This document shows, in pieces, positions 1 through 1,671 of a DNA stretch of 4,669 bases; the stretch's first letter is position 1; each line of letters begins with the position of its first letter. Both the position numbers and the translations under genes were made by a program. The notes below the pieces were generated by a model that did not search any database, was not told the origin of the DNA, and saw nothing but the letters and a program-made list of their open reading frames with translations. This stretch comes from a virus (taxonomy: Duplodnaviria > Heunggongvirae > Uroviricota > Caudoviricetes), in IMG/VR virus record IMGVR_UViG_2703718850_000005, one strand, 5' to 3'.

Positions 1-1671
1 CATCGTCGGGAAGCTGGCAAAACGGGCATTTGGCCCCGATTCCAGGGTAGCCCCTTTTTGTCCTGCGAAATTAAGATTTCCGGGATTGTTATTCCTGATC
101 CCTCTGGATAAATATGCAGATCTGTTTACTTGATTTGAAAATCCCTGCAATCCTCCAGGCCAGACCTTACCCGGATTGTTTTTTTGCCACTCCTGCACTT
201 CGTTAAAATAATCAAAGTTGAAACGCCCCTCCAGCCCTTTCATTTCCTCACTGGTGGTAGGTGTGTCATTTGTAGGAATAGCCAATCCAGCTACTGTTCC
301 GGCTGTAGCCCCAAGAAGACTTCCACCAACAACACGGGCGGCAACTCCGGTCGTTGTGGCTGCCACAGCACCAACTCTCGATGGTCCAGCAAGTACTGCG
401 GCCCCAAAAAGCCAGGGATGTTCAACCGCAAAACCAACAAACCCGCTAAGTGCCTTAACAACCTTTGCAACATTTTCGGCAAAATTATTCAGGTCGTTAT
501 TAAAATGCGGGCCATTTACATACTTACCAAGTTTATCCAGACCTATTTCAACATCAGTCAAAATTCTTTTAAAGTTCTCACCGTTAAGGAAATTTAGACC
601 AGCATTCTTTACACCATTAGATATTCTAATTAGCTGTACAGAGTTACCCGACATTGCCCCCTGAAATCCGCTGGTAAGTTGATCCCAGTTATTTTCTAAG
701 TTGCTGGTAAGATTCTGATACTGGCTTGTATGTCCAGAGGTGAGCAACGAGTCATTCTGAGAAGCTCGCGATAAAAACTCTTTGTTGAGTTCAGGTATTT
801 TGTCCTGATATTTGACTAACTGGTTAGCAATACCAAAATTTACCCATCCAAGGCCACGACCTCTGAGCATGCTCTGAGTAAGTCCGGTTCCCTCATACTC
901 CTTTGCAAGAGCAGCAACTCTTTCTAACAATACAGGAAGATTTTCTGCTGCCCCTTTTTTAGGATTTATCCCTAATCCAATTAGCCCGTTGTAGGCAGGA
1001 TGCTGAGTGTCATTTTGCGCGGCTGCCAGTGTATTGAGCAAATTACCAACACCGGAAAAATAAGGCGAATAAGTGCTTTCTGCCGCCTTTAGCTCTCCTG
1101 GCGTTGCCTGCAATTCATCAGCATTTTTCTGTTTCTCTACAACATTACGAGCCATCATGCCAAAGCCAAACGGCCCGGCAACGCCCATAACCGCAAGTTT
1201 TGTCCCCCACGATACGGTGGTTTTAAACAGGTTGTTTAATCTCGAAGTGGTCGTCCGTAGCGTAGAATTGATCTGCTTGTAAGTTTTCAGCGTCTGTTTG
1301 GCTTTTTTCCCCAGCCCGCTGAGGTACTTATCAAACATCGTTTCGCCGCGACCTTTATAGTTGCTCACCAGCGAATCAGGTGTTTTCCCGCTGCCAACAA
1401 AGCGCCATTTTTCATCCCTTAAACGTCCATCAGTGGAAGCAGCCAGAACTGGCGCGGGTGAAGATGGTTTCCTGGGAGCCTGATTGGCTTCTCCGCCTGT
1501 GGTTGTCTGCCAAGAGCCACCTCCCGGACCTGTATTTGAAGGTATTTTAAGCGGCGTACCGGCAGGGCCAATCATCAGTCCGTTGCGATACTTTTCAAAT
1601 ATCGCCTCAAGCCGCCTGAGGTGTTCTTCATTAACATCCAGCGTCAGAACTGGCATCTGGTTACCAGCCAT
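1..1671 (-). CDS. Large structural protein, partial (at least 557 codons, C-terminus beyond window start); putative tail tape measure protein, or alternatively a podovirus-type internal/ejection protein
   Basis: ATG at 1671..1669 preceded by AGGAG (plus 1679..1683) with a 7-nt spacer. I scanned the frame by hand for in-frame TTA/CTA/TCA on the plus strand and found none from 1707 down to 1; the ORF track omits it because no stop lies in the window. The start overlaps the upstream -1 frame stop (TGATG). Translation has hydrophobic Gly/Ala-rich stretches (LAVMGVAGPFGFGMMA; FGAAVLAGPSRVGAVAATTTGVAARVVGGSLLGATAGTVAGLAIP) and an Asn/Gly-rich distal region with repeated NNPG. The position directly after a frameshifted gene fits the G/GT-TMP paradigm. 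The functional call is inference only. Confidence 0.6.
   Translation of the reverse strand, partial: MAGNQMPVLTLDVNEEHLRRLEAIFEKYRNGLMIGPAGTPLKIPSNTGPGGGSWQTTTGGEANQAPRKPSSPAPVLAASTDGRLRDEKWRFVGSGKTPDSLVSNYKGRGETMFDKYLSGLGKKAKQTLKTYKQINSTLRTTTSRLNNLFKTTVSWGTKLAVMGVAGPFGFGMMARNVVEKQKNADELQATPGELKAAESTYSPYFSGVGNLLNTLAAAQNDTQHPAYNGLIGLGINPKKGAAENLPVLLERVAALAKEYEGTGLTQSMLRGRGLGWVNFGIANQLVKYQDKIPELNKEFLSRASQNDSLLTSGHTSQYQNLTSNLENNWDQLTSGFQGAMSGNSVQLIRISNGVKNAGLNFLNGENFKRILTDVEIGLDKLGKYVNGPHFNNDLNNFAENVAKVVKALSGFVGFAVEHPWLFGAAVLAGPSRVGAVAATTTGVAARVVGGSLLGATAGTVAGLAIPTNDTPTTSEEMKGLEGRFNFDYFNEVQEWQKNNPGKVWPGGLQGFSNQVNRSAYLSRGIRNNNPGNLNFAGQKGATLESGPNARFASFPTM

What the first reader, a model, noticed from the sequence alone, without database searches (positions are those of the whole stretch)
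1..1671. Large protein with atypical composition for a tape measure: Asn/Gly-rich region with tandem NNPG motifs and long Gly/Ala/Thr hydrophobic stretches
Its position after the frameshift gene argues for a tape measure protein, but the sequence is not the usual charged alpha-helical type. It has two membrane-like Gly/Ala-rich segments (encoded around 1150..1215 and 271..440). The in-window distal end carries a repeated motif, QKNNPGKVW (encoded around 169..186) and RNNNPGNL (around 73..96), derived from a near-repeat of the 10-mer CCGGATTGTT / CGGGATTGTT. I cannot assign a known domain from memory, and the remainder of the protein lies outside the window.
Basis: partly seen in the sequence, partly recalled or inferred. 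Interest (0 to 1): 0.4.

Follow-up and report, generated by a model that had tools for sequence, protein, structure and literature searches.

The report
Tape measure protein with lysin domain
The open reading frame is the first 557 of 691 residues of the tail tape measure protein of an E. coli prophage with a contractile tail, and its "RNNNPGNL" motif is the start of a known cell-wall-cutting domain, so the finding is ordinary and largely explained.

Summary
The ORF at window 1671..1 (minus strand) is real. It holds 557 of the 691 codons of a protein found in hundreds of E. coli and Salmonella prophages. In intact relatives the gene lies between a tail chaperone gene with a conserved -1 slippery site and the baseplate hub genes, downstream of sheath and tube. 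That is the tape measure position.

The N-terminal part is predicted mostly helical. Profile comparison relates it distantly to annotated tape measure proteins such as Burkholderia phage BcepB1A gp14 T.

The RNNNPGNL motif is the N-terminal signature of the Enc34 ORF39 / PHA02564 peptidoglycan hydrolase domain (PDB 7Q47). The window cuts this domain after about 37 residues. The inferred catalytic Glu633 lies outside the window.

About half of the relatives carry a classical SLT transglycosylase at the same position. A phage about 95% identical in the flanking parts has the SLT version, so this is a swappable lysin cassette.

The upstream NNPG lies outside the cassette, is absent from other relatives, and is no more than chance: there is no tandem repeat. 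Gly/Ala hydrophobic stretches also occur in Mu gp42 and P2 gpT, so the composition is not atypical, apart from high Asn.

The window itself is a whole contig from a defective prophage with two internal deletions.

The parts
1..1671 (-). First 557 of 691 codons of the tape-measure-like protein. The last 134 codons and the stop lie beyond window position 1.
   Evidence: Translation. The full gene is in E. coli EC11 at L001:2607-4682, with one residue different (I376 vs T376). phrog_7694 E 1e-276.
1679..1683 (-). AGGAG ribosome binding site, 7 nt upstream of the ATG at 1671-1669
   Evidence: Read directly from the sequence.
1138..1215 (-). First hydrophobic segment (aa 153-178), conserved across the family. 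W155 is nearly invariant and G169 invariant.
   Evidence: Kyte-Doolittle profile; alignment A1.
712..1164 (-). Conserved all-helical core (aa about 170-320). It is the only N-terminal part modelled with high confidence and lies within the stretch (aa 107-355) that aligns to BcepB1A gp14 T-type tape measure proteins.
   Evidence: AlphaFold pLDDT 87-96. hhalign P 1.1e-5 with reversed and shuffled controls.
271..462 (-). Second Gly/Ala/Thr-rich hydrophobic region (aa 404-467), with a GxxxGxxxGxxxG glycine zipper at G450-G462 (nt 286-324). This region varies between family members.
   Evidence: The glycine zipper is read from the sequence. Mu gp42 has a similar stretch.
169..180 (-). Upstream NNPG (aa 498-501), in the linker. 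It is not part of the lysin domain and not conserved.
1..153 (-). Start of the swappable lysin cassette (aa about 507-668; only aa 507-557 are in the window).
   Evidence: The pPE4 homologue is near-identical up to aa 506 and from aa 669 on, with an SLT domain in between. In A1, 18 of 32 members have Pfam SLT at this position.
1..114 (-). First 38 residues (aa 520-557) of the Enc34 ORF39 / PHA02564-type peptidoglycan hydrolase domain. The signature RNNNPGN is at nt 76-96.
   Evidence: phmmer vs PDB: 7Q47 E 5.6e-11, 9VVP_L E 8.7e-12. Foldseek to 7Q47 TM 0.71.
1967..1974 (-). Run of eight T holding the slippery heptamer T_TTT_TTT (1967-1973) in the zero frame of the chaperone-like gene
   Evidence: Conserved in 59 of 64 distinct upstream regions of relatives.
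1671..1964 (-). -1 frame ORF (97 aa from its ATG; the frame is open from the slip site). It is the inferred frameshift extension of the tail chaperone. Its TGA overlaps the ATG of the tape measure gene by one base.
   Evidence: phrog_14324 E 1.7e-62.
1736..2551 (-). 271-aa fusion ORF. The 5' part comes from a head-proximal gene (phrog_6737). The 3' part (below 2120) is the chaperone-like gene (phrog_11810) lacking its first 77 codons or so.
2120..2121 (.). Junction of a 3869-bp deletion relative to the intact prophage. It removes three small genes, the sheath and tube genes, and the 5' end of the chaperone gene.

Best explanation
The ORF encodes the tail tape measure protein of a temperate E. 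coli/Salmonella phage with a contractile tail. The tail module is laid out like those of Burkholderia phage BcepB1A and Acinetobacter Obolenskvirus phages. The protein is fused at its C-terminal (tail-tip) end to a virion-associated peptidoglycan hydrolase.

Inferred mechanism:
1. The chaperone-like protein and its -1 frameshift product hold the largely helical N-terminal 500 residues or so.
2. The conserved C-terminal tail (I-x-L-x-x-x-Q-x-P-G-S-D-I) docks on the baseplate hub.
3. Tube and sheath polymerise around the tape measure until its end is reached.
4. On contraction the protein is expelled tip-first into the periplasm.
5. The Enc34-type lysozyme-like domain (aa about 520-660; Y586, Y598 and E633 correspond to Enc34 Trp79, Tyr95 and catalytic Glu131) opens the peptidoglycan locally.
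6. The Gly/Ala-rich hydrophobic segments, one of them a glycine zipper, insert into the inner membrane to help DNA passage.

Shown here: gene position, the conserved slip site, homology and fold of the lysin domain, cassette exchange with SLT domains, and remote homology of the N-terminal part to annotated tape measure proteins.

Inferred, not shown: length determination, virion location, enzymatic activity and membrane insertion.

In the genome this window comes from, the prophage has lost the sheath, tube, portal and terminase genes. There the gene is an intact-looking remnant that cannot build a tail.
For: Position:
- In intact EC11 the order is sheath (phrog_205), 143-aa tube-position gene, 205-aa chaperone-like gene, this 691-aa gene, 222-aa, 88-aa, baseplate hub (phrog_196), baseplate protein.
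- The same order is found wherever both flanks were recovered, in most of the 79 IMG/VR loci, down to 62% sheath identity.
- BcepB1A (gp17, gp16, gp15 E/E', gp14 T, gp13, gp12, gp11, gp10 V) and phage Cato have the same layout.

Frameshift:
- T_TTT_TTT is kept in 59 of 64 distinct upstream regions. The -1 ORF ends on this gene's ATG.
- Variants with nine T fuse the two parts in frame.

N-terminal part:
- hhalign of aa 107-355 against the BcepB1A gp14 T / Cato / PEAT2 / P0212 profile gives P 1.1e-5 over 229 columns. Reversed and 20 shuffled controls give P >= 0.12.
- The model is 78% helix over aa 111-430.
- Mu gp42 is 690 aa and has similar Gly/Ala stretches.

Lysin domain:
- 7Q47 E 5.6e-11 by sequence and TM 0.71 by fold.
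- Enc34 Trp79, Tyr95 and Glu131 map to Y586, Y598 and E633. The Glu is kept in all PHA-type family members.
- The Enc34 domain is experimentally muralytic (PMC8943055).
- The same domain is found in virion proteins of Kayfunavirus, epsilon15, D6 and others.
- 18 of 32 relatives have Pfam SLT at the same place. pPE4 shows a clean cassette swap.
- phrog_2276, 'tail length tape measure protein', has the same architecture.
- Tape measure proteins with peptidoglycan-cleaving domains are established for T5, TM4 and phiIPLA35 (PMC6116005).
- The prophage has a separate lysis cassette of holins plus an M15 peptidase.
Against: - No Pfam or NCBIfam tape measure model matches.
- The family's own PHROG (7694) is 'unknown function'.
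- Direct hmmsearch of the N-terminal profile, and BLASTP of the tail proteins against BcepB1A, Cato, Mu and P2, find nothing. The homology link therefore rests on one profile-profile score of moderate probability (82%).
- More than half of the model is low confidence (pLDDT < 50 for 356 residues).
- No virion proteomics, tail-length data or enzyme assay exists for this protein.
- The catalytic part of the lysin domain is outside the window. It is known only from near-identical genes in other genomes.
Confidence: 0.85

Rival explanations
1. A tail-associated lysin or ejection protein that travels in or on the tail but does not set its length. The length ruler would be another protein, or would be absent.
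For: No curated tape measure model matches. NCBI names the protein only 'lytic transglycosylase domain-containing protein'. Some records call relatives 'tail-fiber/lysozyme protein'.
Against: It is the only long ORF between the chaperone and the hub; its neighbours there are 222 and 88 aa. The -1 ORF is translationally coupled to it. The N-terminal part aligns to proteins annotated as T / tape measure. At 613-704 aa in relatives, its length is close to Mu gp42 at 690 aa.
Confidence: 0.08
2. The two NNPG motifs are a functional tandem repeat, for example a sugar- or wall-binding repeat, that marks a new kind of Asn/Gly-rich tail protein.
For: Two NNPG lie exactly 30 codons apart. The post hoc probability of two NNPG in a residue-shuffled protein is 3.5e-4.
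Against: Repeated 4-residue words are at chance level, 3 observed against 3.3 expected. Near-repeat 10-mers are common. The first NNPG is absent from all other representatives. In pPE4 it is kept while the second is replaced along with the whole cassette. The second NNPG is part of a known domain signature.
Confidence: 0.03
3. The protein is the phage's endolysin for host lysis, like Enc34 ORF39, which also joins this catalytic domain to transmembrane helices.
For: It has the same catalytic domain family as a proven endolysin, and hydrophobic segments are present (PMC8943055).
Against: It lies inside the tail operon, not the lysis cassette. The prophage has its own holins and an M15 peptidase about 15 kb away. 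The protein is 691 aa with the domain at the C-terminal end, the opposite arrangement to Enc34 ORF39.
Confidence: 0.02

Closest known systems
Burkholderia phage BcepB1A gp14 'T' and tape measure proteins of Acinetobacter Obolenskvirus phages (e.g. Cato gp33); phrog_2276
   Same: Length is similar (about 670 aa). The position in the tail module is the same: sheath, tube, E/E' frameshift chaperone, T, three small or hub genes, V. The N-terminal parts are collinear by profile comparison. phrog_2276 members carry the same PHA02564-type domain near the C-terminus.
   Different: There is no direct sequence similarity by BLASTP or hmmsearch, and the neighbouring tail proteins are not detectably similar either. 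This family forms its own PHROG (7694), annotated 'unknown function'.
Hafnia phage Enc34 ORF39 endolysin catalytic domain (PHA02564 family, PDB 7Q47)
   Same: The sequence signature RGIRNNNPGN is shared, as are the all-helical lysozyme-like fold and the equivalents of Trp79, Tyr95 and catalytic Glu131.
   Different: Here the domain sits at the C-terminal end of a 691-aa tail protein. In Enc34 it is at the N-terminus of a 26-kDa endolysin with a C-terminal membrane anchor. Here it serves entry rather than lysis (inferred). Enc34 Trp79 is Tyr here.
Tape measure proteins with muralytic domains: T5 Pb2, mycobacteriophage TM4 Tmp, S. aureus phiIPLA35 Tmp
   Same: Each is a length ruler that also carries a peptidoglycan-cleaving module and, in T5, membrane-active segments (PMC6116005).
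   Different: Those phages are siphoviruses, and their enzyme families differ (metallopeptidase, Rpf-like, muramidase). This one belongs to a contractile tail and has an Enc34-type domain.
Phage Mu gp42 and P2 gpT (tape measure proteins of contractile tails)
   Same: Gene position is the same. Mu gp42 is nearly the same length (690 aa). Both share Gly/Ala-rich hydrophobic stretches, with GxxxG runs in Mu gp42.
   Different: No significant sequence or profile similarity. Neither gave any significant similarity to the query's lysin region when compared as whole proteins by BLASTP.

Membership tests
Phage tail tape measure protein (functional class) | Gene lies between the tail assembly chaperone pair (with programmed -1 frameshift) and the baseplate hub or tail-tip genes, downstream of tube (and sheath) | tested here: met
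   EC11 context. Order sheath, tube, chaperone, this gene, 222-aa, 88-aa, hub in most of the 79 IMG/VR loci, wherever both flanks were recovered. T_TTT_TTT slip site in 59 of 64 distinct upstream regions, with the -1 ORF ending on the ATG. In the window itself sheath and tube are deleted.
Phage tail tape measure protein (functional class) | Sequence homology to recognised tape measure families | tested here: inconclusive
   No Pfam or NCBIfam tape measure hit. hmmsearch and BLASTP negative. hhalign to the BcepB1A gp14 T group gives P 1.1e-5, probability 82%, with clean controls.
Phage tail tape measure protein (functional class) | Long, predominantly alpha-helical protein with hydrophobic or Gly-rich segments | tested here: met
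   The AlphaFold model is 78% helix over aa 111-430, much of it at low confidence. Hydrophobic segments are comparable to Mu gp42 and P2 gpT.
Phage tail tape measure protein (functional class) | Protein length sets tail length; protein is present in the tube lumen of the virion | not testable with these tools
   Needs electron microscopy of length mutants, virion proteomics or cryo-EM. Relatives range from 613 to 704 aa, but no tail measurements are available.
PHA02564 / Enc34 ORF39-type peptidoglycan hydrolase domain | Significant sequence similarity to the Enc34 ORF39 catalytic domain, including the N-terminal RGIRNNNPGN signature | tested here: met
   phmmer vs PDB: 7Q47_A E 5.6e-11 over aa 520-637; 9VVP_L E 8.7e-12. 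Only aa 520-557 are inside the window.
PHA02564 / Enc34 ORF39-type peptidoglycan hydrolase domain | Catalytic Glu131 and the aromatic residues Trp79 and Tyr95 | tested here: met
   They map to E633, Y586 (Trp to Tyr) and Y598. The Glu is conserved in all PHA-type members of A1. All three lie outside the window, in the full-length gene of EC11 and L002.
PHA02564 / Enc34 ORF39-type peptidoglycan hydrolase domain | All-helical lysozyme alpha-lobe-like fold | tested here: met
   AlphaFold aa 525-655 has pLDDT about 87-98. Foldseek to 7Q47 gives E 9e-6, TM 0.71 and rmsd 3.3 over 165 columns.
PHA02564 / Enc34 ORF39-type peptidoglycan hydrolase domain | Muralytic activity | not testable with these tools
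   Shown for Enc34 ORF39 only (PMC8943055).
SLT / GH23 lytic transglycosylase (the name NCBI gives this protein) | Match to Pfam SLT (PF01464) with the E-S ... G-L-x-Q signature | tested here: not met
   P0001 has no Pfam family, while 18 of 32 relatives match SLT at the equivalent position. The sequence here is of the Enc34 type.
Tandem-repeat protein (NNPG repeat) | Repeat units that share ancestry or are conserved together | tested here: not met

The most novel reading that the evidence does not exclude
Within one tape measure backbone, the peptidoglycan-cutting module is a mobile cassette. An Enc34-type glycosidase is exchanged for an SLT lytic transglycosylase between prophages that are otherwise about 95% identical in this gene. 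This would mean active selection on which wall bond the tail tip cuts, for example to cope with peptidoglycan modifications or growth states of the host. It would also place the wall-cutting activity of these contractile tails on the tape measure protein. Linked to it, the chaperone upstream may use an unusually long (about 78-codon) dual-frame overlap at a T8 run, where transcriptional slippage could replace or add to ribosomal frameshifting.
Probability: 0.3. Interest if true: 0.4.

Novelty: new member of a known kind. Interest (0 to 1): 0.2.

Why it matters
The result gives a functional name to a very common but poorly annotated prophage protein (phrog_7694 'unknown function'; NCBI 'hypothetical' or 'lytic transglycosylase domain-containing'). 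It also corrects the enzyme family: Enc34/PHA02564-type, not SLT. The clean swap between two unrelated wall-cutting domains in nearly identical tape measure proteins is a tidy natural experiment. It could be used to ask what a virion-associated lysin contributes to infection. None of this changes how phage tails are understood.

Tried and rejected
- Pfam and NCBIfam scans of the window fragment and the full protein gave only a sub-threshold WXG100 hit, judged noise.
- One Pfam call failed on a wrong frame.
- The first homologue search returned only proteins 99-100% identical and gave no diversity. The 50%-representative search was needed.
- Direct hmmsearch of the N-terminal profile found nothing. 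Its targets were BcepB1A gp14, Cato gp33, PEAT2 gp47, Mu gp42, P2 gpT and P0212. BLASTP of the EC11 tail proteins against BcepB1A and Cato also found nothing.
- hhalign to single Mu gp42 and P2 gpT sequences was negative.
- The search for related loci with the 32-sequence alignment failed for lack of conserved stretches. An 11-sequence alignment worked.
- Foldseek against the PDB found nothing for the N-terminal helical core beyond generic helical bundles with E > 0.8.
- BFVD hits to named tape measure proteins were weak, E 2e-3 or worse, and are not used as evidence.
- The afdb50 library was unavailable.
- PDB entry 9VVP could not be traced to a paper.
- A literature search for Rac-SA53, pPE4 and BcepB1A was swamped by mycobacterial PPE proteins. 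No tail-length data were obtained.
- The idea that the window is an artificial splice was rejected. The same fusion ORF is on five contigs in at least three assemblies. A 104-kb contig matches the whole window at 99.94%.
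Full report
**What is in the window**

All sizeable ORFs are on the minus strand. The finding concerns the ORF that starts at ATG 1671-1669, preceded by AGGAG, and runs off the window at position 1 after 557 codons.

The window is a complete 4669-bp contig, LOPD01000099.1 of assembly GCA_001576205.1. It is a mosaic relative to the intact prophage of E. coli EC11 (NZ_CP027255.1, locus L001):
- Window 1-2120 matches L001 3012-5131.
- Window 2121-4571 matches L001 9001-11451.
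- Window 4567-4669 matches L001 16471-16573.

The window therefore carries two internal deletions.
- The first is 3869 bp. It removes three small genes, the sheath and tube genes, and the 5' end of the chaperone gene.
- The second is about 5.0 kb. It removes part of a DUF2213 gene, a 277-aa gene, the portal-position gene, the large terminase and part of the small terminase.
- Both junctions show 2-5 bp of microhomology.

The same structure is present at 99.94% identity on a 104-kb contig of another assembly (L002). It is a real, defective prophage and not an artefact.

Its 5' part is phrog_6737 and its 3' part is phrog_11810.

**Check of the observation**

The two NNPG are at aa 498-501 (nt 169-180) and aa 528-531 (nt 79-90). 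The two 10-mers are at 171-180 and 81-90. Asn is high at 8.5%, against 3.3-3.8% in Mu gp42 and P2 gpT.

The 'tandem repeat' does not hold:
- Near-identical 10-mer pairs are frequent in this ORF: 79 observed against 59 +/- 11 after codon shuffling.
- Repeated 4-residue words are at chance level: 3 observed against 3.3 expected.
- Among 32 diverse family members only the query has an NNPG at the upstream position.
- The Actinobacillus phage pPE4 homologue keeps the upstream QKNNPGKVW while lacking the downstream motif altogether.

**The full protein and its C-terminal domain**

The complete gene is 691 codons (L001:2607-4682). It differs from the window copy at one residue. Pfam and NCBIfam give nothing. 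PHROGs places it in phrog_7694, 'unknown function'. NCBI calls it 'lytic transglycosylase domain-containing protein' or 'hypothetical'.

A sequence search of the PDB hits two chains with aa 520-637:
- The catalytic domain of the Hafnia phage Enc34 endolysin ORF39 (7Q47, E 5.6e-11).
- The N-terminus of a 1295-aa 'Gp29' (9VVP, E 8.7e-12).

The Enc34 domain defines the PHA02564 family. It is muralytic in vitro and has an all-helical lysozyme alpha-lobe-like fold. Its catalytic Glu131 and the important residues Trp79 and Tyr95 are described in PMC8943055. In the alignment these map to E633, Y586 and Y598. The Glu is kept in every Enc34-type family member.

An AlphaFold model built on the 32-sequence alignment is confident over aa 525-655. 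It superposes on 7Q47 with TM 0.71.

The window ends 37 residues into that domain, and all inferred active-site residues lie outside it.

The same domain occurs in virion or internal proteins of Kayfunavirus, epsilon15, D6 and Mu-like Pseudomonas phages, and in chi-like endolysins.

**A swappable lysin cassette**

The 50%-representative search found 5766 proteins at E <= 1e-3 and 37 at E <= 1e-30. Many are 600-720 aa long with the same layout.

In the alignment of 32 (A1), three parts are clear:
- A conserved N-terminal part: aa 1-30, and aa about 110-410 with invariant G169 and A196.
- A variable linker followed by a lysin domain.
- A conserved C-terminal tail, I-x-L-x-x-x-Q-x-P-G-S-D-I-x-A-Q.

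The lysin domain is of the Enc34 type in 13 members. In 18 members it is a classical SLT domain (Pfam PF01464).

The pPE4 protein is near-identical to the query up to aa 506 and again from aa 669 on. In between it carries an SLT domain. This is direct evidence that the segment is a functional, exchangeable wall-cutting module. It also shows that NCBI's 'lytic transglycosylase' label does not fit this particular allele, because Pfam SLT is not matched.

**Is it the tape measure protein?**

In EC11 the gene order is:
1. Sheath (phrog_205, 445 aa).
2. A 143-aa tube-position gene.
3. A 205-aa chaperone-like gene.
4. This gene.
5. A 222-aa gene, then an 88-aa gene.
6. Baseplate hub (phrog_196, 335 aa).
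7. Baseplate protein.

The same order is found in most of the 79 IMG/VR loci, wherever both flanks were recovered. These are mostly 45-50 kb contigs. Sheath identity falls as low as 62%, and this gene ranges from 613 to 704 aa.

The chaperone-like gene contains a run of eight T. In its zero frame this forms T_TTT_TTT (window 1967-1973). A -1 ORF (phrog_14324) runs from there to a TGA that overlaps this gene's ATG. The heptamer is kept in 59 of 64 distinct upstream regions. Two loci with nine T encode the fused product directly.

The layout equals that of BcepB1A (gp17, gp16, gp15 E/E' 'pre-tape measure frameshift protein', gp14 T, gp13, gp12, gp11, gp10 V) and of Acinetobacter phage Cato.

Direct sequence searches do not connect the N-terminal part to these proteins. 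A profile-profile comparison does. Residues 107-355 align collinearly with residues 20-263 of a BcepB1A gp14 / Cato gp33 / PEAT2 gp47 / P0212 profile. P is 1.1e-5 over 229 columns, probability 82%. A reversed control and 20 column-shuffled controls give P >= 0.12. P0212 itself is a strong member of phrog_2276, 'tail length tape measure protein', and of several other tape measure PHROGs.

The model is 78% helical over aa 111-430, with a high-confidence core at aa 170-320.

Mu gp42 (690 aa) and P2 gpT (815 aa) have similar or longer Gly/Ala hydrophobic stretches and similar charged-residue content. The composition is therefore not unusual for this class. The segment G450-x3-G454-x3-G458-x3-G462 is a glycine zipper, a motif typical of membrane-inserting helices. 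That last point rests on my own knowledge and was not tested.

The prophage has a separate lysis cassette, which argues against an endolysin role.

**Mechanism**

From the established biology of tape measure proteins and virion-associated lysins (PMC6116005), I infer the following.
1. The protein is held by the chaperone and its frameshift product.
2. It is anchored by its C-terminal tail on the hub.
3. It templates tube and sheath polymerisation.
4. After contraction it leaves the tube tip-first, so that the C-terminal hydrolase cuts peptidoglycan locally.
5. The hydrophobic segments then engage the inner membrane.

Only position, homology and fold are shown here. Length control, virion location, activity and membrane insertion are inferred.

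**Verdict**

This is a tape measure protein with a C-terminal Enc34-type lysin: a new, well-supported member of a known kind. The 'atypical composition' and 'tandem motif' were not.

The more interesting side results are the clean cassette exchange between two unrelated lysin families and the long dual-frame overlap at the conserved T8 slip site. Interest is low (0.2).

Noticed in passing
window 2120/2121 and 4567-4571: The window is a whole contig from a defective prophage with two internal deletions relative to the intact EC11 prophage. One is 3869 bp (sheath, tube and neighbours). The other is about 5.0 kb (portal-position gene, large terminase, parts of the small terminase and a DUF2213 gene). 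Each junction has 2-5 bp of microhomology. Both deletions are shared with a 104-kb contig of another assembly.
   Followed up: yes
window 1736-2593 (-) and 4262-4666 (-): Both ORFs are in-frame deletion fusions, not natural genes. The first joins phrog_6737 to phrog_11810. The second joins a small-terminase fragment (phrog_51) to the C-terminus of the DUF2213 protein (phrog_6216).
   Followed up: yes
window 1736-1974 (-); loci L011-L089 around 6690-7000: The zero frame of the chaperone-like gene stays open for 67-78 codons past the T8 slip site while the -1 ORF runs in parallel. This dual-frame overlap of about 230 nt is kept across relatives. The zero-frame tail is low-complexity Ser/Thr/Ala-rich. 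Whether both frames are under selection was not tested.
   Followed up: partly
L058 and L068, about 6697-6705: Two related loci have nine T instead of eight, which fuses the chaperone N-terminal part in frame to the '-1' ORF (..GELIFFYMRLVDKF..). This could be a homopolymer sequencing error, a natural variant, or a hint that transcriptional slippage at the T run contributes.
   Followed up: partly
window position 1; L004 end: Two independent assemblies break their contigs at aa about 550-557 of this gene, inside the swapped lysin cassette. This suggests a second copy of that cassette and the downstream tail genes elsewhere in those genomes. Up to 5 places per genome were seen for window 1-2120.
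   Followed up: no
L005:9001-11082 (Actinobacillus phage vB_Apl-pPE4): A phage recorded with Actinobacillus pleuropneumoniae as host is 98% identical in DNA to this E. coli prophage over the head genes. Its tape measure backbone is about 95% identical. That is an unexpectedly close relationship for hosts in different families, and the host assignment may deserve a check.
   Followed up: no
L002 8597-9757; L005 14311-15366: Between the baseplate genes, just before the Baseplate_J gene, different relatives carry different inserted genes. One has an HSDR_N-domain protein. pPE4 has an anti-repressor plus a small ORF on the opposite strand. This looks like a moron insertion hot spot.
   Followed up: no
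L001 13223-14659: The gene at the portal position of the intact prophage is named 'anti-CBASS protein Acb1 family protein' by RefSeq. Its position between the terminase and head morphogenesis genes suggests a portal. The annotation was not checked.
   Followed up: no
window 2609-3637 (-): The 342-aa ORF is the likely major capsid protein: phrog_6671 at 5e-183, weak phrog_264 'major head protein' at 1.7e-8, and sub-threshold Pfam PF09950. It is annotated only as hypothetical in RefSeq.
   Followed up: partly
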